From NCBI GenBank assembly GCA_016193315.1, contig JACPSJ010000001.1, positions 21,935-85,934 of the forward strand: a stretch of 64,000 nt of DNA, given 5' to 3'. The position numbers and the translations under genes were made by a program. A model generated the notes under the pieces. It was not told the origin of the DNA and ran no database searches. It saw nothing but the letters and a program-made list of their open reading frames with translations. This DNA comes from Candidatus Kerfeldbacteria bacterium. Lineage in GTDB: Bacteria; Patescibacteriota; Patescibacteriia; SBBC01; CAIJZX01. Below, piece after piece: positions 3,856-61,932 of this stretch (position 1 is the first letter of the stretch; every line of letters begins with the position of its first letter).

Positions 3856-6489
3856 CTACCGGTTTCCATGTTTTTGTATGATCGCTTCCGCGTCCTCCAT
3901 CTTGACCGATAGGATTTGTGACACGCCGTCATTCCCCATGGTGACACCGTACAGAATCTGCGATTTTTCCATCGTCGCCCGGTTGTGGGTGATGACGAGG
4001 AACTGGGTTTTCTTGGCCAAGTGGTCGAGGATGGCAGCGAAGCGCTGCGAGTTGGCTTCGTCGAGGGCGGCGTCGACTTCGTCGAGGACGACGAACGGCG
4101 ATGGATTGTTAGAAATAATGGCGCAGAGCAAGGCGATCGAGGTCAGCGCCCGTTCGCCGCCGGAGAGCATGGTAATCGATTGAAGCTTTTTCCCGGGCGG
4201 AGTGGCCTTAATCTCGATACCGGTAATAACCTTCTGGCCCGGATTTTTGCCCGACGGCGGTTCGGATGGAACCGAAACTTCCTCTCCTTCTTCCATCTCT
4301 GGCTGGATGACTTCTTGGGTGAGCGCCAGTTCAGCTCGGCCGCCGCTGAAGAGCGTGCGGAAGTATTGGTGAAACTCCTGGTTGATTTTTTTAAAGGCGC
4401 TGTCGAAGCGTTGTTTAATGGTTGATTCAAGATGGTCAATGGCCTTTTCGAGCGAGGCAATCGCTTGACGAAGGTCGTCGGCCTGATGGCTGAGAAACTC
4501 CCAGCGTTCGTTCGTGCTCCGGTACTCGTCGGTCACTTGCTGGTCAATGCCGCCGATTAGTTGCAGCTGGTGGGTCAAGCGGCCGATCTCTTCGGCTAGC
4601 CGGCCGACGTCGCCATTCAGTTTCTGGTCGGCCGCCTGGGCGATCAGGTCGACCGCCTCCGGGGACATGGCTTGGCGGATTTCTTTTTTTAGATCGTCAA
4701 TCTGTTGCTCGAGCTTGGCCATCTGCACCCGTAAACCGTTGACCGTCGTGGTGGCGTGGTTGAGATGTTGTTGGCTGTCGCGGAAGGCTTTCTGCAAGGT
4801 GAAGAGCCGATCCTTCTTGCTGGTTTCCAGGGCGTTGAAGTTATTGATTTCCTCTCGAGCCGCGGTCAGCGTTTCGTCGAGGGCGGCGATCCGCTGCTCG
4901 ATTTCCTTGGCCTGCTTGGCGTAGGCGGCGTAGGCTTCCTCGGGGTTGGTTTTAGCCAGTTCCTGGATCGACGACTCCTGATGGAGTTTTTCATGCTCGG
5001 CGCCAAGCCGCTCGCGCTCGTCGAGCAGGCGTTGACGGTGGTCGTGAACCCGCTGGCGTTCCGCCCGCGCCTCAGCCAAGCGCTCCGCCGCCCACTGGCG
5101 TTCGGCCATCAGTTTTAAGGCCGATCGTTGGAGCGTTACCAGACTGCGCGTTTCGTCAGAGCCGGCCGAGTCAAGCTGGTCGAGCAAGGTAGTTAGTTCA
5201 ACCGCCAGCGCGTTCGCTTGCTGGCGAAGGGCCGGGAGATCAACCGTTTCCGCTGCCAGGACTTTCTGCCACTGCCGGAATTTCTGCTGCCATCGTCTGA
5301 GCGCCGATTTCCCGGCCGCCAACGACTGTCGTGTCCCATGTCCTTCGATCTGGCTGAGTTGCTGTTCCAGCGCGGCGAACTGCTGGTCCAAGGCGGCCTT
5401 CGACTTTTCCTCACGCTCGACCGAGGTGCCGATACGCTGGCTCATCTGTTCCGCCACATCAAGCTCTTCTTGAATGCGATCGAGCGCCCGCTTCAATTCT
5501 TGGAGTCGATGTTGATGATAGACAACTTCTCCTCGACCCGCTTCTTTGACCGCCACCTCGAGTCGGCCCTTGACCACCGACTGTTCCTGGAGGAGGGCAT
5601 TCTTCTGATCAAGGACGCGATTGTACTTTTTTTGTAGCTCGGCGAAGACCTCCGAGCCGGTTCGTTCCCGCTCGATCTGTTCCAGTTCATCCTGAATAGT
5701 CGAGAGTTCATGTTCAATCGTTCCCCGCCGGCCATCGTTCGACGAATGTGTCGCTTGTCGTTCTTCGAGCTGGCGGTGGAGGGCTTGCCACTGTAACCCG
5801 TAATACAGCCGCTGCTGCTCATGAAGCTGACGTTCGACTTCTTCCCGCCGCTCGAGGCGGCGAACCTGGCGGGTCAAAGAACGAAGCCGCGGCTCAATCT
5901 CCACCATCAGCGTCTCCCCTTGGGCCAGGTTCTCTTTGGCCTGAGCAAGCTTGTGAACCGCCTGATCTTTCTTCAGCTGAAATTGTCGAACACCGGCGGC
6001 TTCGTCGAACAGGTGCTTTCGTTCTTGGGGACTGGAAATGAGGAATGAGTCAATCATCCCTTGGCCGATGACCGAATACGTTCGTTGGCCGAAATTGGCC
6101 TGAGCCAGAAGCAGCTGCATGTCCTGCAAACGGGTGGCTTGGTGGTTCAAAAGATACTCACCCTCGCCGTCGCGGTAGACGCGGCGGGTCAGCACCACCT
6201 CGCTGTACGGCAGTGGGGCACGTTGGTCTTCGTTGTTCAAGTGGAGCGAGACCTCAGCGACCCCGAGCCGCGCCTTCTTATCCGAACCGGCGAAGATGAC
6301 GTCTTCGCTCTTCTTGCCGCGCAGGGCTTTCAGACTTTGCTCGCCAAGGGCCCAACGAATCGCTTCGGCCACATTCGATTTGCCAGAGCCGTTCGGCCCG
6401 ACGATGGCGGTAATGCCGGGCCGAAAGGTGAGGCTGATGCCGTGGGCGAATGATTTGAATCCTTGGAGATCGAGACGAGAGAGGAACAT
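3856..6489 (-). CDS. smc: chromosome segregation protein SMC, short form (~877 aa)
   Basis: N-terminal LDLQGFKSF...GPNGSGKSN (Walker A), long coiled-coil middle, C-terminal LSGGERALTSIALL...VLDEVDAALD signature plus Walker B. Start taken at MFLSRL (6489); the longest ORF start is at 6510. Confidence 0.9.
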   Translation of the reverse strand: MFLSRLDLQGFKSFAHGISLTFRPGITAIVGPNGSGKSNVAEAIRWALGEQSLKALRGKKSEDVIFAGSDKKARLGVAEVSLHLNNEDQRAPLPYSEVVLTRRVYRDGEGEYLLNHQATRLQDMQLLLAQANFGQRTYSVIGQGMIDSFLISSPQERKHLFDEAAGVRQFQLKKDQAVHKLAQAKENLAQGETLMVEIEPRLRSLTRQVRRLERREEVERQLHEQQRLYYGLQWQALHRQLEERQATHSSNDGRRGTIEHELSTIQDELEQIERERTGSEVFAELQKKYNRVLDQKNALLQEQSVVKGRLEVAVKEAGRGEVVYHQHRLQELKRALDRIQEELDVAEQMSQRIGTSVEREEKSKAALDQQFAALEQQLSQIEGHGTRQSLAAGKSALRRWQQKFRQWQKVLAAETVDLPALRQQANALAVELTTLLDQLDSAGSDETRSLVTLQRSALKLMAERQWAAERLAEARAERQRVHDHRQRLLDERERLGAEHEKLHQESSIQELAKTNPEEAYAAYAKQAKEIEQRIAALDETLTAAREEINNFNALETSKKDRLFTLQKAFRDSQQHLNHATTTVNGLRVQMAKLEQQIDDLKKEIRQAMSPEAVDLIAQAADQKLNGDVGRLAEEIGRLTHQLQLIGGIDQQVTDEYRSTNERWEFLSHQADDLRQAIASLEKAIDHLESTIKQRFDSAFKKINQEFHQYFRTLFSGGRAELALTQEVIQPEMEEGEEVSVPSEPPSGKNPGQKVITGIEIKATPPGKKLQSITMLSGGERALTSIALLCAIISNNPSPFVVLDEVDAALDEANSQRFAAILDHLAKKTQFLVITHNRATMEKSQILYGVTMGNDGVSQILSVKMEDAEAIIQKHGNR

Positions 6490-8647: not shown

Positions 8648-8968
8648 ATGCGCAAGCATACCCCGCCGCCGGCCATGGATGGTCAGCAATTGCTCGCCCT
8701 GGCCAAGCGGATTGCCCGCGCGGCCGAGGTGTTCTACCAACGGTACTGGTACGAACAAAAACTGAAACGTCAGGATCAAGAGCTGCGGTTCGAGGTCCGG
8801 TGGGACGATCTTGTGGCCGCGGCCGAGCGTCTTGATGATGAACCATTCGCGGCGTTGATGGAGCGCCTGGCAGCGGTGGCTGAACAGGACGACGAAACGG
8901 CGGCCAGACTGTTCGCCAGCGCGAAAAGACCGAAAAAGCTCAGACCGCCAGCCGCTCCAAGCACCTAA
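8648..8968 (+). CDS. hypothetical protein (107 aa)
   Basis: AAGGAGG 5 nt upstream of the ATG at 8648; plausible composition; followed by a hairpin and T-run. Confidence 0.45.
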   Translation: MRKHTPPPAMDGQQLLALAKRIARAAEVFYQRYWYEQKLKRQDQELRFEVRWDDLVAAAERLDDEPFAALMERLAAVAEQDDETAARLFASAKRPKKLRPPAAPST

Positions 8969-8971
8969 ACC

Positions 8972-9012
8972 AGCCGAAGGCTGAAGGCTCAGGCTGGGTT
9001 TTCTTTGCGGTG
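8972..9012 (+). terminator. intrinsic terminator candidate
   Basis: ccagccgaaggctgaaggctcaggctgg followed by gttttcttt. Confidence 0.4.
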
Positions 9013-9030
9013 CCGCCGCGTGATTGACCA

Positions 9031-9145
9031 CCCCCACACAAAATCCATCTCACTTTCGGAGAACGGTGGCAGAACTTGGATTTGTGGCCAGTAGAAAACT
9101 TTGGGCCCCTCCTCATGAGAGGAGGGGGAAGTTAAGGAGGCGCCG
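9031..9145 (+). repeat. structured intergenic element, copy A (~115 nt)
   Basis: Aligns with 10022..10134 (cccccacacaaaa...tttcggag...ttgtggccag.agaaa...cctcct/aggagg hairpin...aggcgccg), with compensatory changes in the hairpin loop and stem. Confidence 0.5.
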
Positions 9146-9182
9146 CTGAGTAAGAAAAACCGCCTCGAGTGAGGCGGCGCAG
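9146..9182 (-). terminator. intrinsic terminator of the GNAT gene (minus strand)
   Basis: Reverse complement reads gccgcctcactcgaggcggtttttctt. Confidence 0.5.
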
Positions 9183-9184
9183 AG

Positions 9185-9781
9185 TCATTTCTTGGTGCCG
9201 CGACGAGCAGACACGCGCCGCCGGTATCGTTGCCAGGCGAGGAGCCATTGGCGGCGGAATACCTCGAGGAGGATTTCGTCGTAGAACCGACCGCGGCGGA
9301 AGAACTGTTGTCGACGGCGGCCGATGACCCGATAGCCGCATTTCAAGGAGTAAGCCACGCTCCGGGCGTTAAAGGCGATGACACTGGAAAGAACTTTGCG
9401 GAGACCGAGGGTGTTGAAAGCGTATTCCAGTAGCATCATCTTGGCGTCAGTACCGTAGCCTCGATTCCAGTAGCTCGGCTCGCCGATGAAGGCCCCGGTG
9501 GTGGCAAAGCCGTGACGCCAGTTGATCCGATGGAGCCCGATGATCCCGATCGCCGCACCGTCTTTGGTTTCGATGATCAGGACGATGTCATCAGGATGCT
9601 TGGCTAAACCATCGAACCACTCGATCTCCATCTCCCGAGTCTTCGGGGTGCTCGTCTTGAGGTATTGCCAGACCTGCGGCCGGTTGATCCAGACGGTGAC
9701 GAGCTCAAGGTCGCGTTGCTTGTCGGGCGGACGGAGGTTAACAAATATTCCCTCAAGAAAGACAACTTTTGGCGCGGACAT
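9185..9781 (-). CDS. GNAT family N-acetyltransferase (RimJ/RimL-like)
   Basis: GNAT core motifs ...IGIIGLHRINWRHGFATTGAFIGEPSYWNRGYGTDA...; start at MSAPKVV. Confidence 0.8.
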   Translation of the reverse strand: MSAPKVVFLEGIFVNLRPPDKQRDLELVTVWINRPQVWQYLKTSTPKTREMEIEWFDGLAKHPDDIVLIIETKDGAAIGIIGLHRINWRHGFATTGAFIGEPSYWNRGYGTDAKMMLLEYAFNTLGLRKVLSSVIAFNARSVAYSLKCGYRVIGRRRQQFFRRGRFYDEILLEVFRRQWLLAWQRYRRRVSARRGTKK

Positions 9782-10021
9782 TTGTACCTCCCGCGGTAGG
9801 AATGAACAAAACACCCGGCGGTTCCGCCGGGGCAGTCACTGTCTACGTCGAGAAGTTACTTAGCTCTTAAAGTAAACAAGAATTGGCCCGGCAGAACGCG
9901 TTGAGCGTTCCGGCAGATGATCATGGCGTGGCACTTGGACCAATTCTGGAATTGCATGATGCGAAGAGATTACATGCCTAGTGGCCTACTGTCAAGGGCG
10001 GCGCCGCAGCGTTGTTGGGCT

Positions 10022-10134
10022 CCCCCAACACAAAACCCACCCTATTTTCGGAGGATGATGGTAGTATTGAGACTTGTGGCCAGCAGAAACTCTTAGCTCC
10101 CTCCTAAGGTAGGAGGGGATGACGAGAGGCGCCG
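10022..10134 (+). repeat. structured intergenic element, copy B
   Basis: See copy A. The hairpin ccctcctaaggtaggaggg corresponds to cccctcctcatgagaggagggg in copy A. Confidence 0.5.
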
Positions 10135-10498
10135 TGGGCCGATTACGTCAACTGCAACCGCCGCTTGACTCGCTCAACATCCCGCTCGATCCGGCGAATC
10201 CATTCGGCGGTGAAAACGCGTTCTTGGTCAATACGGGTGACGATGACTAAAGAGTCTGTCCATCACCTCGTGAAATTCATTCTTCGTCAGCATAGTTTTC
10301 TCGATCCGGTCGAATCGCGCATCATGTCGGTCGAACCTAGTATCATGTTCAAAAAGCTTCTTGTATATTGTTGTGAGATCGGGGCGAGCAGCTCGACGCT
10401 TCATTCAGCCACCATACACGAAAAGAGATCGAGCGTCAACTCTAAACGAAAGTTACACTCGCCACCCTTCGACTGGGCTCAGGGTCGCATCAGCTTTG

Positions 10499-12970
10499 TT
10501 AAATAAACGTAACGGATGCGACCCGATCATTCTTCTCCGAGAACCGCATCACCCGCACGCCCTGGGTATCACGGCCCAGCACGGATACTGATTTTAACGG
10601 TGTCCGGATAACTTGCCCCTTCTGTGAGATGACAATCACATCGTTTTGCTCCAATTTGGCATTAACGATGAACCCCGCTACTGTCTTGCCGGTCTTGTCG
10701 GTGATTTTGGCCGTTCGGATACCAATCCCGCCGCGGCCTTGGACCTTGTACTGTTTCAACGGCGTCCGCTTGCCAAAACCATTGGTCATGATGACCAGGA
10801 GTTGTTCGTTTGCTTCGGCCTTACCATCAGTCACTAAATCCATGCCGGCCACCTCGTCGCCCCGGCGGAGCCGAATACCGCGGACGCCGGTGGCAGCCCG
10901 GCCCATGGCCCGAACGTCTTTTTCGCGGAAACGGATAGATTGGCCATTGGCCGAGACAAGAATAATGTCGTCACTGCCGCTCGACGGCTTGACCCAGCGC
11001 AAAGCATCGCCACTTCTGAGCTTAATAGCGATCAGCCCAGAGCGCCGAACACTGGTGAAGGCGTCAATCGCTACTTTCTTGATGACGCCGTTCTTGGTGA
11101 CCATGACCAGGTGTTTGTATGGCTTTAAGTCGGCGACCGACAGAACGGCGGTTACTTTCTCCTCGCTCGTTAACTGCAGGAAGTTGACGAGCGCTTGCCC
11201 GCGGGCCGTGCGTGAGGCGGACGGAATGTCGTAGGCCTTAAGCTGAAAGACGCGGCCGCGGCCGGTAAAAAACAGGATGTCAGCGTGGGTGGTGGTCGAG
11301 AGGAAATGGGTGACCATATCTTCTTCCTTGGTGGTCAAACCGACGACCCCTTTGCCGCCGCGACCTTGGGTTCGGAATAGTTCCGGCGAGACGCGCTTGA
11401 TGTAACCGTCGCGGGTGGTGACGATAATCGTGGCTTCGTTCGGAATCAGATCTTCCTGAGTGAAGGCGCCGACGGCACCGGCCACGATCTCGGTTCGTCG
11501 CGGGTCGGCGTACTGCCGCTTGAGCTCGGTTAGCTCATTCCTGACGAGGCCCAAGATTTTCTTCGGACTGGCCAGCAAGGCTTGTAATTCTTTGATCAGC
11601 GCCAGCTTCTCTTTATGTTCTTGCTCGATCTTCAGGCGTTCAAGGTTAGCCAGCTGCTGCAGGCGCATTTCCAAGATGGCCGTGGCCTGCGGATCGGTGA
11701 GTTTGTATTTTTTGATCAGATTGACCTTGGCCTCGTCGCGGTCCCTTGACTTTTGAATCGTTTTGATAACCTCTTGAATGTGGGCCAGGGCGATGAGTAG
11801 CCCTTGAAGAATGTGGTCGCGCTCCTTGGCGCCTCGGAGCTCAAACTCGGCCCGCCGCCGGGCCACCGTCTGCCGGTGCTTGAGGTACTCTTCCAGCACC
11901 ATCTTCAACGTCAGCACGCGCGGCTGGATACCGTCGACCAAGGCCAGCATGTTGACATGGAACGTCTCTTGCAGCTGGGTCAGCGTGAACAGACGGTTGA
12001 GTACTTTTTTCGGGTAAGCATCTCGCTTCAACTCGATGACGACGCGCACCCCGCCTTTGTTCGATTCATCGCGCAGGTCTTTGATGCCCTCGATTTTCTT
12101 GTCGCGGACGGCGTTAGCGATTTGTTCCAGTAAGGTGGCCTTGTTCACTTGGTAGGGGATGGCGGTGACAATGATATTGAACGCACCACCCTTAGCCTCG
12201 ATGATATCTGTTTTGGCCCGCATCACGATCGCCCCCTTGCCGGTGGCATAGGCGGCTTTGATGTCCTGGCGGTTGTAAATTAAACCGCCGGTCGGGAAAT
12301 CCGGACCCTTGACAAACTCGGTTAGATCATCGGCCGTAGCCTCCGGGCGATCGATCAGATGAATCGAGGCGTCGACCAGTTCACCGAGATTGTGCGGCGG
12401 GATATTGGTGGCCATGCCGACGGCGATGCCGACCGTACCGTTGAGGAGCAGATTCGGCAATTTGGCCGGCAGGACCCGCGGCTCATGCTGCGAACCGTCG
12501 TAGTTGGGAACGAAGTCCACGGTTTGCTTATCGATGTCGACCAGCAGTTCCGCCGCCATCCGATCAAGCCGCGCTTCGGTATAGCGCATGGCGGCCGCCC
12601 CATCACCATCCATCGAGCCGAAATTCCCCTGACCGTCGATCAGGGGGTAGCGCATGGCAAAGTCTTGGGCCAGCCGAACCATGGCGTCATAGACGGCGAT
12701 GTCGCCGTGGGGATGGTACTTACCGAGGACTTCACCGACCACCGTCGCCGACTTGCGGTACTTCGCGCCAGGCCGCAAACCGATGTCCCACATGGCGTAG
12801 AGAATGCGCCGCTGGACCGGCTTCAGGCCGTCGCGAACGTCCGGCAAAGCCCGCGCCACGATGACGCTCATGGCGTAATCGAGGTAGGACTCTTGCATTT
12901 CGGTTACCAACGGCCGGGGCGCAACGGTGCCGATGGCAAACGATGGGCGTGATTCAGGGGTGGTGGGCAT
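10499..12970 (-). CDS. gyrA: DNA gyrase subunit A
   Basis: [22 protein letters not shown]...catalytic-Tyr region AMRYTEARL; C-terminal beta-pinwheel repeats. Confidence 0.95.
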
Positions 12971-16542: not shown

Positions 16543-16616
16543 CCCGCCGCGCCCGTCTTGGACCTCCTCACCTAGCCTCTCCTCTAAGCGGAGAGGAAAT
16601 AGGAGGAGCGCGGCGG
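16543..16616 (+). terminator. large GC hairpin downstream of rpsA, a terminator or structured element
   Basis: ccgccgcgc...cctctcctctaagcggagagg...aggaggagcgcggcgg nested inverted repeats. Confidence 0.35.
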
Positions 16617-35458: not shown

Positions 35459-37868
35459 GGCGGAAACGTTTTAGCCGCAGTGAGTTTAGCACGACGAAGA
35501 GCGACGAGCCAGCCATGGCGCCGGAAGCGATGATCGGGCTGAGCAACAGATGAAACGCCGGGTACAGGACACCAGCGGCGATCGGCAGGCCGAGAATATT
35601 GTAGATGAATGCCCAGAAGAGATTCTGCTTGATATTCCGGAGCGTAGCTTTTGATAGGCGGATGGCGGTTACCACCTGACGGAGGTCATTGCCGACGATG
35701 GTGATATCCGACGCTTCCCGCGCCACGTCCGTGCCCGAGCCCATGGCCATGCCGACATCGGCTTGGGCCAGAGCTGGTGCATCATTGACGCCATCGCCGA
35801 CCATGGCCACGCGGTGTCCAGCAGCCTGGAGTTCTTTGACCTTGGCCGCTTTGTCGCCCGGCAGAATATTGGCCAGCACCCGATCGCGGTCAATGCCGAC
35901 TAGCTGAGCGATGCGGGCGGCCGTCACTTCGTGGTCGCCGGTGATCATGAAGACGGTTAGCCCGAGGCGACGTAATTGCGCGATGGCCGCCTGGCTGGTT
36001 GGCTTGATTTTGTCGCCGACGCCAATCAGCCCAGCCGTGTCTGCCTCAACCGCCACCATGATCGGCGTCAACCCACGCCTGGTGTAGGCTTGATGGTCGA
36101 ATCGGTCACCCGTAGTGAAAACGCCGAGGTTGTGCACCAGCCGTGGGGAACCGACAATCACTCGCTGTCCATTGATCACACCACTGACTCCTTGTCCGGG
36201 ATGGTTGTTGAAACCCACGACCGGCTGGAGAGTTAAACCCCGCTTCTTGGCTTCGGCCACGATCGCTTTGGCCATCGGGTGCTCGCTTTTTGCTTCGACT
36301 GAGGCGGCGTACTGCAGCGTGTAGTCTCGCCCGACGACATCGATCACGGCCATCTGCCCGCTGGTGACGGTGCCGGTCTTGTCCAGCACGATCGTGTCGA
36401 CCCGCTGAAGCAATTCCAAAGCCTCGGCATCGCGCACCAGCACGCCTTGTTCAGCGCCGCGACCAACACCAATCATAACCGCCGTCGGCGTGGCTAAGCC
36501 AAGGGCGCAGGGGCAGGCAATGATCAGCACCGTGACCGCGGCGATCAAGCTGAAGTTCAGGGCCAGGACGCCAGCCGGCGGGAAAATCATCCAGACGGTA
36601 AACGCCACCAGCGCGATGGCGATGACAATCGGCACAAAAACTCCAGAAATCTTGTCGGCCAAACGCTGAATTGGAGCTTGCGAGCTCTGGGCCTCCTCCA
36701 CCAGCTGGATGATCTGTGACAACATCGTTTGCTTCCCGACCTTCGTGGCGCGGAAGGTGAAGCTGCCGTGAGTATTGATGGTACTGCCGTAGACGATACT
36801 GCCCGGACTTTTCTCCCGCGGCAGGCTTTCGCCAGTGACCATCGCCTCGTCAACCGCCGACTGCCCGTCGACCACCTCGCCATCAACGGCTATTTTTTCA
36901 CCCGGCCGGACGACGATCACATCGCCCACCACGACTTGGTCAAGCGGTACTTCTCGTTCTTGCCCATGGCGGATAACGCGCGCCACTTTGGCGGCCAATT
37001 GGGCCAGTTTGCGGATCGCTTCATTGGCGCCGGCCTTAGCCCTGGCTTCAAGATACTTACCGAGCAGAATGAGCGTGATGATGACGACGGTCACGTCAAA
37101 GTAGGTGGCTGGTTGCTGCCCACTGCCGGCAAAAGCCGCTGGCCAGACCACTGCGACCAGGCTGAAAAAGTATGCGGCGCTGGTGCCGAGAGCGATGAGC
37201 GTATCCATGTTCGCTTGCCAGAAGCGCAGCGATTTCCAGGTGCTGACGAAAAACTGCGATCCAGCCCAGAAGAGGACCGGCGTGGCCAGAAGAAGTTGAA
37301 TCGGTCGAATGGTTGATTCGGGAGCGATGGTTGCTCCGAACAACATCAATGCGTCCGGCAGCATGACCATGATCGAAGTAACCACCCCGAACCTCAACTT
37401 GCGTTTTAAGATAAGGAGTTCTTCCTGTCGCAACATCCGGGCGTGATCGTGGACGCTGTGTTCCATTGAGCCGGTTTCACCGGTGTGTTCGTGGGCCGAT
37501 GGTTCGTGTTCGTCATGGTGGTCGTGGGCGGCCGCGGCTCCTCCCCTGCCCGACCGCTCGGCCATGAGCTCGCGGCCGAATGGGGGGAGGTGTCCCGAGC
37601 TTCGTCGAGGGGCGGAGGGGTGGGAGCCGCGGCCGCCCTCAATAACGGCCGTGTATCCCAGCTTGTCGATTTGCTCGGCGATCCGTGTTGGTGAGCATTG
37701 CTGTGAATCGAAAGTCACCCGACCCTGCTCGGTGGCGTAATTGACGTTAACCTCAGCCACGCCTGGTAGCTTTTTGACCACCCGCTCAATGTTCTTGGCG
37801 CACGAAGCACAGTGCATGCCGACGATGGGAAAACGAAGGCTGGTGGTCATACCCTGGTCACTGAACAA
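35433..37868 (-). CDS. copA: copper-translocating P1B-type ATPase
   Basis: N-terminal HMA ([12 protein letters not shown]), His-rich stretch, CPC in the TM region, [15 protein letters not shown]. Confidence 0.9.
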
Positions 37869-43025: not shown

Positions 43026-43277
43026 GGTCTTTCTACTACATACTGTAGTACCTTGGGCCGAGTGTCAACCCCGCACCACTTTTTGGTATTCTCACGGCCG
43101 CGGATGCCGCCGACGTCGAAGCCGCCTCTCATTGTATACCAAGAGGCGAATCTGATTGGCGGAAAAGTGGTGCGGGGTGCCCGGCCCCCGGGGCCAGCGC
43201 TATGGCCGGACCGAAAAGCGCTTGTCAAATGGGGTAACCTTGGCTATACTTCGCCTGCTTCGTTTGGTCGACCAGCT

Positions 43278-46198: not shown

Positions 46199-46315
46199 CC
46201 AATCCTGATGCCCGTGCCCACCGCGCGCCGCTTGCCTGGTCGGTCCTTAGCTCCTCGTAAAGACCGGCGAAGCCGGTCCACGGGGCAGGCAATGTACGTA
46301 CGGTCCCGCCCCGGT

Positions 46316-46387
46316 TCGGTCCCTAGCTCAATGGTAGAGCACTCGTCTTATACACGAGCGGTTGCAGGTTCGAGTCCTGCGGGACCG
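46316..46387 (+). tRNA. tRNA with anticodon TAT (would read AUA; Ile-like), no encoded CCA
   Basis: Cloverleaf: acceptor CGGTCCC/GGGACCG, D-arm GCTC..GAGC, anticodon stem CTCGT/ACGAG, loop CTTATAC, T-arm GCAGG TTCGAGT CCTGC. Confidence 0.6.
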
Positions 46388-46548
46388 AGTTTGGGCGGGA
46401 CAGGTACACGAGCGGTCGCGGGACTGCCCCGAAAACGAGGAACTACGTGACAAGTTGTACGGGACTCGAATCCTGGCGGGCCGACCATGGAAAGGGTGTA
46501 TCGCCTCAGCGCTTAAGGCACCCGGTGTGAAAGATTCAACCGAAAACT

Positions 46549-48290: not shown

Positions 48291-48504
48291 TCTTAGCCCG
48301 GTATTTCTTACTTGAACTATTGGGGTCGGCGTGCTACCCTCCATCGCGCGAGTTTCCTGTACTTTCTGGTTTACGAGTTCGTAGCTCTCGCCCGCTAGCG
48401 CCTTCGGCGCAAGCCGTGGCGAGCGGGCAGCCCGGTTAGACCCGCCCGCCGGCTTCGCCCGATTCTGTCAAATTATCGTCTTGGTTTAAAGAAAAGCTGC
48501 TGTT

Positions 48505-48581
48505 GGGTTCGTAGCTCAGTTGGTTAGAGCGCCACATTGACATTGTGGAGGTCAGAGGTTCAAATCCTCTCGGACCCACCA
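48505..48581 (+). tRNA. tRNA-Val (GAC), CCA encoded
   Basis: Cloverleaf GGGTTCG..anticodon loop TTGACAT..TTCAAAT..CGGACCCACCA. Confidence 0.85.
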
Positions 48582-48617
48582 AGAGCTTTTCTTACGCCGG
48601 CGAAGCGGGCCGGGGCG

Positions 48618-48665
48618 CTACGTTGACATCGTGAAGGCCAGAGGTTCAAATCCGGGCGTGGTACG
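48618..48665 (+). repeat. degenerate partial copy of the tRNA-Val anticodon/T-arm region
   Basis: cgttgacatcgtgaaggccagaggttcaaatcc versus tRNA cattgacattgtggaggtcagaggttcaaatcc; the T-stem is not complementary. Confidence 0.3.
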
Positions 48666-53001: not shown

Positions 53002-53964
53002 GTGGTCTGGGTTCATGATATGCTGAGCAGTGCTATGAGCAACCAGTCGATTGTAGTCCCAGCCGGGACGCCGCCAGTCCGCCTCGATGTCTTTCTGACG
53101 CAACACACTGATCTATCCCGGTCGCAACTCCAAAAACACATCAAGTCTGGCGCCGTATTACTGAATGGCCGGGCCGTTTCCGCCCACCACCAGGTACATC
53201 CTGGCGATGCCGTCGTCCTGCAGGAAATCAGTGCCACCTACCACGAGCAGCCGATCACCGCTGATACCGCTGACCCAGTGGTGGTGTTTGAAGATGACAA
53301 TCTGCTGGTCATCAACAAGCCCAGCGGCCTGGTGGTTCATCCCGCACCCGGCATCCGTGAACGTACGGTTTACGACTGGGCCGTACAGCATGCTCCGGCC
53401 ATTGGCGGCATTGGCGATCAACCACAATTGCGGGGAGGTATTGTGCACCGTCTCGATCGCGATGTCTCCGGGCTGATGGTGATCGCCAAGTCACAACCAA
53501 TGTTCGATTTTCTGAAGTCTCGGTTTCAGGAGCACGCTGTGGAGAAGGAGTACCTAGCCCTTGTCCATGGCCGCTTGACTGACACCAGTGGCCGGATTGA
53601 CTTTGCCATCGCCCGTAAAGCCGATCATTCTGGGTTAATGGTGGCGCGACCGAAGTCACAGGAAGGGAAAGAGGCGGCGACACTGTTTACGGTCGAGCGC
53701 CACATCAAGAATCTCACGCTCGTTCGGGTCCGAACGTTGACTGGTCGCAGTCACCAAATCCGCGTTCACTTCAAGGCCATTGGTCATCCACTGGTTGGCG
53801 ACCCGCTGTATCGAATCCGGGGCCAAAAACGATTGCGGATCACTCCGCCCCGCCCGTTTCTCCATGCCACGGTGCTCGGCTTCACCGATCTTGCCGGGCA
53901 GCGCAGAAAATTCGAAGCGCCGTTGCCGAATGATTTGCAGCAGTACTTGGCTCGGGTTGGATAA
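53002..53964 (+). CDS. rluD: RluA-family 23S rRNA pseudouridine synthase (RluD-like)
   Basis: S4 domain at the N-terminus; catalytic HRLDRDVSGLMVIAKS. Confidence 0.85.
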   Translation: MVWVHDMLSSAMSNQSIVVPAGTPPVRLDVFLTQHTDLSRSQLQKHIKSGAVLLNGRAVSAHHQVHPGDAVVLQEISATYHEQPITADTADPVVVFEDDNLLVINKPSGLVVHPAPGIRERTVYDWAVQHAPAIGGIGDQPQLRGGIVHRLDRDVSGLMVIAKSQPMFDFLKSRFQEHAVEKEYLALVHGRLTDTSGRIDFAIARKADHSGLMVARPKSQEGKEAATLFTVERHIKNLTLVRVRTLTGRSHQIRVHFKAIGHPLVGDPLYRIRGQKRLRITPPRPFLHATVLGFTDLAGQRRKFEAPLPNDLQQYLARVG

Positions 53965-54054
53965 GGCCGCCGCTCCGGACCGTGACCACCCCGTCTCCGC
54001 CAAAGGCGGAGCCACCCCTCCTTATCAAGGAGGGGATGGGCCGGAGCGGCGGCC
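53965..54054 (+). promoter_or_regulatory. highly structured element between rluD and rplS (possible L19 leader or terminator)
   Basis: 14-bp outer stem ggccgccgctccgg/ccggagcggcggcc enclosing hairpins ccgtctccgccaaaggcggagcc and cccctccttatcaaggagggg. Confidence 0.4.
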
Positions 54055-54083
54055 TTGACCGCAATGGTCTACCGCGCTAGACT
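54055..54083 (+). promoter_or_regulatory. promoter candidate for rplS
   Basis: TTGACC, 17 nt, TAGACT. Confidence 0.35.
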
Positions 54084-54744: not shown

Positions 54745-55677
54745 GGTTCACCTCTTTCAGTTCGCTTCACGCGAGTGAAGTCGTAGTGGAAAGTTGATTC
54801 GGCCAGGACATGGGCACCGCTCAAATAGCGACCGGCTCGACCATTTGCTGTGACCGGGCGGCAAGACATTATCGTGACACTGGTCCTGTCGCCAGGGTTT
54901 GAAGTCATCTGGTTAGTCAAGACGTGTCCGTTGACGAACAGTTCCGGGCCAGGTTCATGATCCGCCATCGGGCCTCCGGCAAAGATGGAAAGGGCGAAGA
55001 TAACGAAACAAGCTCCCGGTCGGGAGCTCATGTCTTGGCGTCGAGTAGTGGGTGGATTTATGGCGACAACACAGGAACTCCCGATCGGCTGGAGCCGGTC
55101 AGAATCAGACTAAGCGTGATGGTCAGAATCTGGGAGTAGACTGTGGTGTCCATACAAGAATAACCTAGCGCAAAACCGCCAAGGTGTCAATACCCCCCCT
55201 GGAACATTAGTCGTTCCCCCGCCTGCGCGTCTACCCAATTAGGCGCCCAGGTGGGGGAGCGGCCGCGTAGATGGCTTGCACCTTACGCGGCCGCCTCGTC
55301 TTGACCGCCATTCCGGTTTTCCGGAACGGCTTCCAAGGGTTTGGACTTGGCTGGCTCGCCGCGGTGGTTTTGGCGCCGGCCGGAATAGACCATCCCAGCC
55401 GCCAAAAGAATCGGGGTCGCGACCACCAGCGCGATCATCCACACCCAGGCAGGTACTGGCACTAGATTCACCTCCTTTGGTTTAGGTGCGGCTTTCCACG
55501 TGATCCGGACTGGCACGTATTACGTGGTGCTGCGGCCGGACTTACGTGGTCCCGGTCAGCTGCGGCGCAAAATGAGCGTTGGCCTAGGCATAGCACAAAG
55601 GCCTTCCGTTGTAAAGAGTGTGCTTGTCCGGACAATAGTTATGGCTAACGAGTGTGACAGTCAAGCTTGTAAGCAGC

Positions 55678-55765
55678 TGGTGCGGCCGAGAGGACTCGAA
55701 CCTCCAATCCCTTGCGGGAACTAGCACCTCAAGCTAGCGCGTATACCAAATTCCGCCACGGCCGC
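55678..55765 (-). tRNA. tRNA-Leu (GAG), class II, CCA encoded
   Basis: Reverse complement GCGGCCG...CTAGC TTGAGGT GCTAG, long variable arm, GGAGG TTCGAGT CCTCT CGGCCGCACCA. Confidence 0.8.
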
Positions 55766-55965
55766 ACCAGCTGCTGACAAAGTTTCAAGGTGCTGCGTCC
55801 CTCTTGGTAGGTTGAGATTGTGCCATAAAAATTTGTCCTCGGCAAGCGATCATTCCAACTTGCCCTTCCTTGCTTTTTCCGCTAGGGTAGTCGCGGCCGG
55901 TCGAGGAATCGGTTATATGAGAAGCTCTTTGACACATCGGCCAACAACCGAAAGGAGGTTTCGGC

Positions 55966-56847: not shown

Positions 56848-56911
56848 AGTATCCGGTCCCGGCATGCAAGATGTGCTGAACCGGATTTTTTATAAGTCGA
56901 ATTGGCCTTGA

Positions 56912-56951
56912 CCCAGCACCACTTTTGTATGGAAACAAAAGTGGTGCTGGG
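56912..56951. promoter_or_regulatory. 16-bp perfect inverted repeat (operator or bidirectional hairpin)
   Basis: cccagcaccacttttg-(tatggaaa)-caaaagtggtgctggg, flanked on both sides by TTGAC. Confidence 0.4.
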
Positions 56952-57083
56952 TTGACAAATCCATCGGCCAGGAGAATGGTAAAGACAGTAGTCGTCCTTT
57001 CCCAATCATGGCCGATATCCATAGCCTGGAGATTTACTACCCAAAACCATGGAGCACATGACCGGGAAGAAAGTGAGGTTGTC

Positions 57084-60462: not shown

Positions 60463-60548
60463 GATCGCACAGTGCCGCGGTAGCTCAGTGGTAGAGCGCA
60501 GGCCTGCCCGGCGGAGCCGGGTCCGGCTCTGCCGGAAAGAACCTGGCC
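60463..60548 (+). other. tRNA-Phe-like 5' half (acceptor, D-arm, 5' anticodon stem) followed by a ~42-nt GC-rich insert. Its first 18 nt form the outer inverted repeat
   Basis: GCCGCGGTAGCTCAGTGGTAGAGCGCAGGCCTG then cccggcggagccgggtccggctctgccggaaagaacctggcc; compare intact tRNA-Phe GCCTGGGTAGCTCAGTGGTAGAGCGCAGCCCTG. Confidence 0.45.
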
Positions 60549-60631
60549 CTTCGCTGCGGCTCAGGGTAAACTCTATCAGTTCGACTTGCCCCGCACCTCA
60601 CAAACAGTAGTTTTTTTCTCGCCTGGTGCCT

Positions 60632-60706
60632 GCCTGGGTAGCTCAGTGGTAGAGCGCAGCCCTGAAGAGGTTGGCGTCATCAGTTCGATTCTGATCCCAG
60701 GCACCA
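60632..60706 (+). tRNA. tRNA-Phe (GAA), CCA encoded
   Basis: GCCTGGG..anticodon stem CAGCC/GGTTG loop CTGAAGA..ATCAG TTCGATT CTGAT CCCAGGCACCA. Confidence 0.85.
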
Positions 60707-60916
60707 GGCGAGAACGGAATGAATGAGGTGCGGGGTTCTGACCCGCGGCACTGTGCGATCTTGGTAGCGAAGTGGGTCGAGCCGGTCTCGCGAAGCGAGA
60801 GCGACAGAACTGCTTCTGTCGCGGCCGGCGAGACGGGCAATCCCATGTTCCGAAGGAACGGGATTGCCCCGGAAGAGCGCCGGGCACGTAAAGGCACGCT
60901 TCGCGTCTCCACGTGC

Positions 60917-61861: not shown

Positions 61862-61932
61862 CGCCGCTGCCCAGGAAGAGCAATTGCCTCTTAAGCAATG
61901 GGTTGGAGGTTCGAATCCTAGGCTGGTCACCA
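61862..61932 (+). repeat. degenerate tRNA-Lys(CTT)-like sequence (pseudo-tRNA)
   Basis: ...GCAATTGCCTCTTAAGCAATGGGTTGGAGGTTCGAATCCTAGGCTGGTCACCA has the anticodon and T-loop, but the D-arm/acceptor and T-stem are disrupted. Confidence 0.3.

What the first reader, a model, noticed from the sequence alone, without database searches (positions are those of the whole stretch)
9031..10134. Two copies of a ~115-nt structured element with covarying hairpin, plus a recurring CCTCCT/AGGAGG hairpin motif
9031..9145 and 10022..10134 align over their whole length (cccccacacaaaa..tttcggag..ttgtggccag.agaaa..aggcgccg). The internal hairpin differs between copies in a compensatory way (cccctcctcatgagaggagggg versus ccctcctaaggtaggaggg), which argues for selection on RNA structure. 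Both are intergenic and in the same orientation. One lies between convergent terminators and the other between gyrA and the GNAT gene. The same anti-SD/SD-type hairpin (CCTCC...GGAGG) recurs at 16543..16616 and 54015..54035. It may be an uncharacterised small RNA or a genome-wide REP-like structured repeat.
Basis: seen in the sequence. Interest (0 to 1): 0.55.

Follow-up and report, generated by a model that had tools for sequence, protein, structure and literature searches.

The report
Palindromic intergenic repeat in a CPR bacterium
Two diverged copies, plus one shorter relative, of a non-coding self-folding DNA element sit exactly at gene boundaries in an uncultured Kerfeldbacteria genome; they look like a small REP- or MITE-type repeat family, not a proven regulatory RNA.

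Summary
The repeat is real. The units are longer than reported: copy A is 9007-9146 and copy B is 9998-10136, both on the + strand, about 70-75% identical. Similarity starts and stops at the base of a GC-rich closing stem (GCGGYGCC / GGCGCCG).

A third, shorter relative, C (53965-54054, +), shares three features: the closing-stem design, the 9-mer GACCACCCC (found only in A and C in the window), and the CCCCTCCT..AGGAGGGG hairpin.

All three sit exactly at gene boundaries:
- A lies between two convergent terminators.
- B lies between a stop codon and the -35 box of the GNAT promoter.
- C lies between the rluD stop codon and the rplS -35 box.

Orthologous loci in the closest relatives keep the genes, promoters and terminators but lack the elements.

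I found no Rfam match, coding signal or promoter. There was no hit in 1.2 Mb of related CPR loci, JGI metagenomes or IMG/VR. Between A and B only the closing stem and the CCUCC hairpin are shared, with one compensatory pair, and wobble evidence does not favour one strand consistently.

Best reading (about 0.45): a low-copy, lineage-restricted REP/MITE-like palindromic repeat family. A structured RNA is not excluded. Genome-wide copy number could not be tested. Modest interest.

The parts
9007..9146 (+). Copy A, long form (about 140 nt). It has a closing stem (GCGGTGCC 9007-9014 with GGCGCCGC 9139-9146), the 9-mer GACCACCCC (9026-9034), a middle stem-loop (9034-9087) and the CCCCTCCTC/GAGGAGGGG hairpin (9106-9127).
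   Evidence: MFE -58.9 kcal/mol, z -3.67 on the + strand. CM score 168 bits.
9998..10136 (+). Copy B, long form. It has a closing stem (CGGCGCC 9999-10005 with GGCGCCG 10128-10134), a middle region (10026-10079) and the hairpin TCCCTCCTA/TAGGAGGGG (10098-10118).
   Evidence: MFE -55.5 kcal/mol, z -2.99 on the + strand. CM score 136 bits.
53965..54054 (+). Element C, a short form (90 nt). It has a 14-bp closing stem (53965-53978 / 54041-54054), GACCACCCC (53984-53992), the hairpin CTCCGCC-AAA-GGCGGAG (53995-54011) and the hairpin CCCCTCCTT-ATC-AAGGAGGGG (54015-54035).
   Evidence: MFE -63.2, z -7.3. (best non-self CM hit: 22.7 bits, E about 0.004, same strand, end to end)..
8970..9006 (+). Intrinsic terminator of the + strand orphan gene (8648-8968). 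Its U-run ends at the first base of copy A.
   Evidence: Sequence, coordinates. Gene called in Logan contigs. The protein is an orphan.
9150..9178 (-). Intrinsic terminator of the GNAT gene (stem 9160-9178, U-run 9159-9150). It abuts the right end of copy A and is orthologous to the GNAT terminators of L003 and L005.
9185..9781 (-). RimJ/RimL-type GNAT acetyltransferase gene that lies between the two copies. It is ancestral at this locus and is not part of the repeat.
9967..9995 (-). GNAT promoter TTGACA-17-TAATCT. Its -35 box lies 2 nt from the left end of copy B. It is conserved as CCCTTGAC.. in L003 and L005, where no element precedes it.
54055..54083 (+). rplS promoter TTGACC-17-TAGACT, directly abutting the 3' arm of element C. 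The rluD stop codon (53962-53964) abuts the 5' arm.

Best explanation
A, B and C are members of a small, lineage-restricted family of non-coding palindromic repeat elements. The closest comparison is with REP/BIME, MITE, ERIC or Correia-type repeats.

Each unit is a discrete piece of DNA bounded by short GC-rich terminal inverted repeats. Inside it carries a conserved module (GACCACCCC plus a CCCCTCCTY / RAGGAGGGG hairpin). The long form adds a further stem-loop.

The units were copied into 'safe' sites exactly at gene boundaries: after a terminator or stop codon and before the next -35 box. The flanking genes and their signals were left intact.

Shown here:
- The units are discrete.
- Their boundaries coincide with the closing stem.
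- They are absent from orthologous sites in relatives.
- They lack coding and promoter signals.

Inferred:
- They spread by copy-and-paste, through an unidentified transposase or hairpin-recognising enzyme, or by recombination.
- When co-transcribed they simply fold into a very stable closed multi-hairpin. That structure could block exonucleases or read-through at the 3' end of the upstream gene.
- They have no trans-acting role.
For: 1. Discrete unit. A/B similarity begins and ends at the two arms of the closing stem, and the flanks are unrelated. The arms of A match as inverted repeats at 9 of 11 positions (GCGGTGCCGCC versus GCGGCGCCTCC).

2. Exact boundary positions.
- A fills the space between two convergent terminators.
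- B runs from 7 nt after a stop codon (TAA at 10145-10143, in a small reading frame that is only open across a frameshift) to 2 nt before the GNAT -35 box.
- C runs from the rluD stop codon to the rplS -35 box with 0 nt to spare on each side.

3. Lineage-specific presence.
- L003 and L005 keep the same gyrA - GNAT module - rpmF locus, with orthologous promoter, leader and terminator, but have no element on either side.
- L094, from the closest relative, has only 8 nt between the rluD stop and the rplS -35 box.

4. Family signal.
- GACCACCCC occurs only twice in the window, both on the + strand upstream of the hairpins of A and C.
- The hairpin pattern occurs 3 times against 0.00 expected.
- C is the best non-self hit of the covariance model, on the same strand and full length.
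- A relative (L006 4768-4851, also in the gyrA-rpmF interval) has an 84-nt element whose 9-bp terminal inverted repeats are GACCACCCC/GGGGTGGTC and which encloses CCACCCCTCCTC-GTCA-GAGGAGGGGTGG.
- L095 has a closed element with CCACCCCC and CCCCCTCCTC-TGAATTCA-GAGGAGGGGG directly after its rluD stop.

5. Not an independent gene.
- There is no Rfam hit.
- There is no coding periodicity.
- There is no promoter-like site upstream of A or B.
- A is flanked by terminators on both sides.

6. Orientation relative to transcription is not uniform. C and A follow + strand genes, while B is antisense to all its neighbours. The L006 element lies in a divergent promoter region.
Against: - Copy number is only 2 + 1 in about 70 kb. 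Genome-wide abundance, the hallmark of such families, is untested.
- No target-site duplication is visible, and no transposase or RAYT gene was identified (the window was not systematically searched for one).
- A and B lie 1 kb apart in the same orientation around one gene. A single local duplication could produce that.
- All three window elements are on the + strand and fold better on that strand (z -3.67/-2.99 versus -2.28/-2.65; -7.3 versus -5.2). Three G.U pairs in the robust helices work only in + strand RNA. This hints at selection at the RNA level.
- The link to C and to the elements in L006 and L095 rests on short motifs and shared architecture. CM scores are 22.7 bits for C and only hairpin-level for L006 and L095.
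Confidence: 0.45

Rival explanations
1. A family of structured non-coding RNAs read from the + strand. Each would be a three- or four-way junction closed by a long stem and displaying an anti-SD/SD-like hairpin. They would be released from longer transcripts by processing at the closing stem and would have a function of their own.
For: - The full units fold significantly better than shuffles, and better on the + strand in all three.
- Paired 5' and 3' ends are typical of stable RNAs.
- tRNA genes of this genome also sit inside long processing-type stems.
- On the model-fitted A/B/C alignment, 88.7% of cells pair, and 7 pairs change on both sides against 3.1 in shuffles (1 of 500 shuffles reach this).
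- 17 of 22 core substitutions are transitions.
- A, C and the L095 element lie on the sense strand just downstream of a gene.
Against: - No promoter is conserved or even present upstream of the units.
- A is preceded by a canonical terminator on each strand.
- B is antisense to every neighbouring gene.
- Between A and B only the closing stem and one hairpin are shared. 11 of 47 pairs of A's fold are broken in B, and the middle stem of B pairs only on the - strand.
- The alignment used was fitted to the structure and has only three rows.
- There is no Rfam match and no homologue in 1.2 Mb of related genomes.
Confidence: 0.2
2. A selected cis-acting boundary element. In this reading a very stable hairpin cluster is kept at gene ends because it stops read-through or protects the upstream mRNA 3' end, or because it insulates the next promoter. 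Its spread would be secondary.
For: - All three sit exactly between the end of one transcription unit and the next signal.
- They are extremely stable (-55 to -63 kcal/mol).
- L095 carries a similar hairpin at the same rluD 3' position.
- C is the only structure between rluD and the rplS promoter.
Against: - A lies between two canonical terminators that already do this job.
- The closest relatives manage without any element at the same boundaries.
- There is no U-run after the hairpins on the strand that is transcribed.
- B is inverted relative to the direction of transcription.
Confidence: 0.15
3. A one-off local duplication or recombination scar in an insertion hotspot. A single ancestral spacer segment would have been duplicated to the other side of the GNAT module and then decayed to about 70-75% identity. 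The resemblance to C would be coincidental.
For: - The gyrA-rpmF interval is a hotspot. It is 20-130 nt in most relatives but 1.5-6 kb with varied cargo in the closest ones.
- L008 and L025 show fresh direct repeats 563 nt apart in this interval.
- There are only two full copies, 992 nt apart and in the same orientation.
Against: - The duplicated segment has the exact limits of a self-closing structure, which an arbitrary duplication would not.
- The GNAT module between the copies is ancestral and single-copy, with conserved flanks. The two copies therefore occupy two separate sites.
- C shares two independent sequence features plus the architecture, 44 kb away.
Confidence: 0.15
4. Integron-type attC sites flanking a GNAT gene cassette.
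For: There are two imperfectly palindromic elements of about 140 nt, in direct orientation around a promoter-proximal acetyltransferase gene.
Against: - The core sites RYYYAAC and GTTRRRY are not present at the ends in both copies, in either orientation (sequence).
- The GNAT gene has its own conserved promoter, leader and terminator, and is ancestral at the locus.
- The neighbours are housekeeping genes.
Confidence: 0.02

Closest known systems
REP/BIME elements (repetitive extragenic palindromes) of proteobacteria
   Same: They are extragenic, sit at the 3' ends of genes or between convergent genes, occur in either orientation, are built around a conserved imperfect palindrome, form stable hairpins in co-transcribed RNA, and are absent from orthologous sites of relatives.
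   Different: REP units are 20-40 nt, carry a conserved 5' GTAG, are present in tens to hundreds of copies, and are tied to a RAYT gene. Here the units are 90-140 nt composite structures without GTAG. Only 2 + 1 copies were seen, and no RAYT is known.
MITEs and related small non-autonomous elements (Correia/NEMIS, ERIC, RUP, Rickettsia palindromic elements)
   Same: They match in size (about 90-140 bp), terminal inverted repeats, lack of coding capacity, strong secondary structure, insertion next to promoters and terminators, and the existence of long and short forms.
   Different: No target-site duplication is visible, no parent IS is known, the terminal repeats are short (8-14 bp) and GC-only, and copy number is unknown.
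Adjacent paralogous small RNAs (for example PrrF1/PrrF2, OmrA/OmrB)
   Same: There are two diverged copies within 1 kb in the same orientation, with conserved sequence blocks.
   Different: Those genes carry their own conserved promoters and U-tailed terminators and lie in one spacer. Here neither signal is present, and a protein gene with its own signals lies between the copies.

Membership tests
Any Rfam 15 RNA family | Match to a family covariance model at or near its gathering score | tested here: not met
   At gathering thresholds the window gives only 7 tRNAs. A permissive scan of 8900-10300 gives only noise, at most 16 bits with E of 2 or more.
REP / BIME | Short (20-40 nt) imperfect palindrome preceded by a conserved GTAG-type tetranucleotide | tested here: not met
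   The units are 90-140 nt composite structures. The shared module is GACCACCCC plus a 19-22 nt hairpin, and no GTAG precedes it.
REP / BIME | Extragenic location, typically at gene 3' ends or between convergent genes, in either orientation | tested here: met
   A lies between convergent terminators. B and C lie between a stop codon and the next -35 box. B is inverted relative to transcription.
REP / BIME | Many copies per genome and an associated RAYT (Y1 transposase) gene | not testable with these tools
   Only the 64-kb window plus about 6 kb of the source genome could be read. The 857-kb source contig was not retrievable. The window proteins were not all scanned for a transposase.
MITE | Terminal inverted repeats bounding a short non-coding unit | tested here: met
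   A: GCGGTGCCGCC versus GCGGCGCCTCC (9 of 11). B: CGGCGCC / GGCGCCG. C: 14-bp perfect arms. A/B similarity ends at these arms. There is no coding signal.
MITE | Target-site duplication flanking each copy | tested here: not met
   The flanks are TTTTCTTT|..|TGAGTAAG for A, GTCAAGG|..|TGGGCCG for B, and GGATAA|..|TTGACC for C. No direct repeat is visible.
MITE | Empty orthologous sites in related genomes | tested here: met
   L003 and L005 lack A and B at conserved GNAT flanks. L094 lacks C. The relatives are distant (NusB 77-87% identical), so loss cannot be excluded.
Bacterial small RNA gene | Own promoter and intrinsic terminator delimiting a discrete transcript | tested here: not met
   The scan of 8800-10600 finds no promoter-like site upstream of either copy. 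The only terminator-like hit inside a copy is a weak - strand hairpin in B. The sequences upstream of the two copies are unrelated.
Structured RNA (general) | Statistically supported covariation over the proposed helices | tested here: inconclusive
   Between A and B there is 1 compensatory pair, 7 one-sided changes and 11 broken pairs out of 47. With C added on a model-fitted alignment, 7 pairs change on both sides against 3.1 in shuffles. Three rows and a structure-fitted alignment are not enough.
Integron attC site | R''/R' core sites (RYYYAAC ... GTTRRRY) at the ends of an imperfect palindrome | tested here: not met
   Read directly on both strands of both copies. No consistent core sites are present.
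DNA uptake sequence | A 9-12-mer strongly over-represented throughout the genome | tested here: not met
   A k-mer census of the window shows no over-represented word belonging to the elements.

The most novel reading that the evidence does not exclude
The elements may be a previously undescribed family of structured RNAs, specific to Kerfeldbacteria-like CPR bacteria. Each would be a closed multi-way junction presenting a CCUCC/GGAGG (anti-SD/SD-like) hairpin and a conserved GACCACCCC strand. They would be produced from the + strand at the 3' ends of genes, processed at the closing stem, and have a function of their own, for example in ribosome- or RNase-related control.
Probability: 0.12. 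Interest if true: 0.6.

Novelty: new member of a known kind. Interest (0 to 1): 0.3.

Why it matters
CPR/Patescibacteria genomes are small and streamlined, and very little is known about their non-coding DNA. A family of self-folding repeats inserted precisely between stop codons or terminators and the next promoter would matter for three reasons.
- It would show that such genomes still tolerate, or use, REP/MITE-like elements.
- It would give markers for recent genome rearrangement.
- It would flag sequences that annotation pipelines may mistake for small RNAs or terminators.

If the elements were instead shown to be expressed as discrete RNAs, they would be one of the few candidate structured RNAs specific to this radiation.

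Tried and rejected
Leads that gave nothing or were ruled out:
- Rfam: no match at gathering or permissive thresholds.
- Protein-coding remnant: rejected. Mismatches fall 6/8/8 over codon positions, and the + frames contain stop codons.
- Further copies by profile search: none in the window, in 80 related CPR loci totalling 1.2 Mb, in GNAT-homologue loci, or in about 5 kb beyond the window's right edge.
- Collection scans: two different patterns found 0 hits in JGI metagenomes and 0 in IMG/VR. An 18-base pattern gave only 3 chance hits in phage coding sequence.
- Orthologous elements in closer relatives: none exist to compare. The GNAT protein has no homologue above 63% identity, and the neighbouring 106-aa protein is an orphan among 5.8 billion proteins.
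- Copy B as the GNAT leader or riboswitch: rejected. The conserved GNAT module starts at the -35 box, downstream of B, and relatives lack B.
- attC sites: rejected, because the core sites are missing.
- Uptake sequence: rejected.
- Replication origin: no GC-skew switch.
- Inverted repeat at 37526-37638: dropped, because it lies inside an 811-aa ORF.
- 16544-16616 as a member of the family: not supported.
- Literature: the searches found no description of such repeats in CPR bacteria.

Full report
**Observation**

The two stretches are related far beyond chance.
- The gap-free core 9031-9113 / 10023-10105 is 73% identical.
- A profile of the pair finds only these two sites in the window, at E about 1e-34.
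- A 53-position purine/pyrimidine pattern hits only them, with 0.00 expected.

Extending the alignment shows that the unit is longer than reported. Similarity starts at GCGGYGCCGC (9007 / 9998) and ends at GGCGCCG (9146 / 10134-10136). The flanks beyond these points are unrelated. These ends are the two arms of a closing stem.

**Origin and gene map**

NusB-based loci place the window in the Patescibacteria, close to Candidatus Kerfeldbacteria. The exact proteins occur in an NCBI Kerfeldbacteria MAG (857-kb contig, locus tags HYY50_) and in several Logan assemblies.

Gene order on the - strand:
- gyrA (10499-12970)
- a small ORF (10228-10404), possibly continued by a frameshift to a stop at 10145-10143
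- copy B
- the GNAT promoter TTGACA-17-TAATCT (9995-9967)
- a leader with a terminator hairpin (9831-9814)
- a RimJ/RimL-type GNAT gene (9781-9185) and its terminator (9178-9150)
- copy A
- on the + strand, an orphan 106-aa gene (8648-8968) with its terminator (8970-9006)
- rpmF, nusB, rnc, a DUF456 gene and an SMC-like gene

Copy A therefore fills exactly the space between two convergent terminators. Copy B runs from 7 nt after a stop codon to 2 nt before a -35 box.

**Anatomy and folding**

The full units with the closing stem do fold better:
- A: -58.9 kcal/mol, z -3.67 on the + strand and -2.28 on the - strand.
- B: -55.5 kcal/mol, z -2.99 on the + strand and -2.65 on the - strand.

Mapping each copy's fold onto the other shows what is shared. 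Only the closing stem and the CCUCC/GGAGG hairpin are common to both.

The middle stem (CCACACAAAAUCCA / UGGAUUUGUGG in A) survives in B only on the - strand, through G.U pairs. By contrast, the U.G in A's closing stem and the U.G at the base of B's hairpin work only on the + strand. Wobble evidence therefore does not point consistently to one strand. The substitutions show no codon periodicity (6/8/8), and 17 of 22 are transitions.

**A third member**

The CCCTCCT-N3-8-AGGAGGG hairpin occurs three times in the window, with 0.00 expected. The third occurrence lies in a 90-nt element, C (53965-54054, +). C has a perfect 14-bp closing stem and two internal hairpins, with MFE -63.2 kcal/mol and z -7.3.

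A covariance model built from A and B with the shared helices gives C as its best non-self hit. C scores 22.7 bits (rough E 0.004), on the same strand and end to end, with the middle stem-loop deleted.

Independently, the 9-mer GACCACCCC occurs only twice in the window. Both occurrences are on the + strand, upstream of the hairpins of A and C.

C abuts the rluD stop codon on one side and the rplS -35 box (TTGACC-17-TAGACT) on the other, with no spare base on either side.

The site at 16544-16616, which follows rpsA, is a different nested hairpin and scores at noise level.

**Comparison with relatives**

The order gyrA-rpmF-nusB-rnc is conserved across this CPR group. In most relatives gyrA and rpmF are 20-130 nt apart. 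In the closest relatives the interval is 1.5-6 kb with varied cargo, so it behaves as an insertion hotspot.

L003, L005 and L009 carry the same GNAT module at this locus. It comprises the promoter CCCTTGAC.., a small leader ORF, a terminator before the RBS, the gene, and the terminator CCGCCTCA..GGCGGTTTTTCTT. None of these loci has an element on either side. The GNAT module is therefore ancestral, and A and B occupy two separate sites flanking it.

At the rluD-rplS junction, the closest relative (L094) has 8 nt between the stop codon and the -35 box where the window has C.

Neither the profile nor the covariance model finds the element in 1.2 Mb from 83 related loci. Two independent patterns find nothing in JGI metagenomes or IMG/VR. 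No close relative of the source organism exists in the protein collection. Orthologous copies for a real covariation test are therefore not available.

**Related-looking elements elsewhere**

L006 comes from a relative with 82% NusB identity. At 4768-4851, also within the gyrA-rpmF interval, it has an 84-nt closed element. Its 9-bp terminal inverted repeats are GACCACCCC / GGGGTGGTC, and it encloses CCACCCCTCCTC-GTCA-GAGGAGGGGTGG. Only 12 copies of that 9-mer occur in the 1.22 Mb of relatives searched, and two of them flank this hairpin.

L095 has, directly after its rluD stop, a closed element with CCACCCCC and CCCCCTCCTC-TGAATTCA-GAGGAGGGGG.

The covariance model recognises only the hairpin in both. 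The relation therefore rests on motifs and architecture.

**Interpretation**

The following features fit a small palindromic repeat family of the REP/MITE type better than a gene for a small RNA:
- The unit is discrete and bounded by inverted repeats.
- It is placed exactly at gene boundaries.
- It is absent from the same boundaries in relatives.
- It exists in a long and a short form.
- Its orientation relative to transcription varies.
- It has no promoter, no coding signal and no match to a known RNA family.

Several points remain open.
- Copy number in the whole genome is unknown.
- The means of spread is unknown. No target-site duplication is visible and no transposase was identified.
- Whether the structure is used at the RNA level is unknown.

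Some hints still favour an RNA role. The + strand folds better in all three elements. There are a few + strand-only wobble pairs. On a model-fitted three-row alignment, 7 pairs change on both sides against 3.1 in shuffles. I therefore keep the RNA reading as the main rival. A one-off local duplication and a selected boundary/insulator function are further rivals. attC sites, an uptake sequence, a GNAT riboswitch and a coding remnant were tested and rejected.

**Verdict**

The element is a new member of a known kind, of modest interest. The decisive experiment is a scan of the full source genome together with strand-specific RNA data.

Noticed in passing
window 9781-9995 (- strand); L003 7245-7490; L005 7380-7635; L009 8740-8995: The RimJ/RimL-type GNAT gene has a conserved upstream module: the promoter CCCTTGAC.., a small leader ORF, then a terminator hairpin with a U-run directly before the RBS. 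The leader ORFs share a V-x-P-G core (window ..MIICRNAQRVLPGQFLFTLRAK; L003 ..AVLPGRCWYMKK; L005 ..EVVPGRCWYMKM; L009 ..IAVWPGLFVHTLKR). The leader word CTGCCGGG resembles the terminator's 3' arm. This looks like leader-peptide or antiterminator attenuation. More distant GNAT homologues (L086, L087) also have a terminator before the RBS.
   Followed up: partly
loci L003-L040, gyrA-rpmF interval; L008 3002-3620; L025 8244-8905: The gyrA-rpmF spacer is 20-130 nt in most relatives but 1.5-6 kb with varied cargo in the closest ones, so it looks like an insertion hotspot. In L008 the last 56 nt of gyrA are repeated 563 nt downstream at 96% identity. L025 has a 99-nt direct repeat, also 563 nt apart.
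   Followed up: partly
window 46303-46401, 48489-48593, 55667-55780, 60616-60714: Four tRNA genes sit inside 17-23-nt extended inverted repeats that pair their 5' and 3' flanks, like processing stems.
   Followed up: no
window 48615-48653, 60473-60506, 61874-61932: There are partial tRNA-like duplicates (80-91% identical) next to tRNA-Val, tRNA-Phe and tRNA-Lys. They may be remnants of integration events. There is also a repeated 31-mer at 60499 and 60917.
   Followed up: no
window 56911-56952 and 43068-43178: Palindromes built from ACCC(A/C)GCACCACTTTT / AAAAGTGGTGC(T/G)GGGT. AAAAGTGGTGC is the most over-represented 11-mer in the window. The first palindrome is flanked by TTGACC and TTGACA, so it looks like an operator.
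   Followed up: no
window 10143-10404 (- strand): The 58-aa ORF downstream of gyrA appears to continue in another frame (..LVIVTRIDQERVFTAEWIRRIERDVERVKRRLQLT*) up to a stop 7 nt before copy B. This suggests a frameshifted small gene or a sequencing error. Neither part matches Pfam.
   Followed up: partly
window 16544-16616: A nested GC-clamped hairpin (CCGCCGCGC .. CTCCTC .. CCTCTCC-TCTAAGC-GGAGAGG .. GAGGAG .. GCGCGGCGG) lies between rpsA and an ABC ATPase gene. It folds with z -4.5 and has no U-run. The covariance model does not place it in the A/B/C family.
   Followed up: partly
L044 37, 1630, 4010, 4049; L072 790, 846: Other CPR relatives carry their own short repeated hairpins, such as CCTCCCCTTGTGTAAGGGGAGG, in both orientations and sometimes in adjacent pairs. 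This resembles REP/BIME clusters.
   Followed up: no
L094-L096, rluD-rplS spacer: This spacer is also variable. L096 has a 23S_rRNA_IVP gene in it, L095 has three small ORFs plus a CCUCC-hairpin element, and L094 has a GIY-YIG gene nearby.
   Followed up: partly
record titles of L006, L009, L020, L021 and others: Several MAGs whose gyrA-rpmF-nusB-rnc loci are clearly Kerfeldbacteria-like are titled 'uncultured Gammaproteobacteria bacterium'. These are probably taxonomic mislabels.
   Followed up: no
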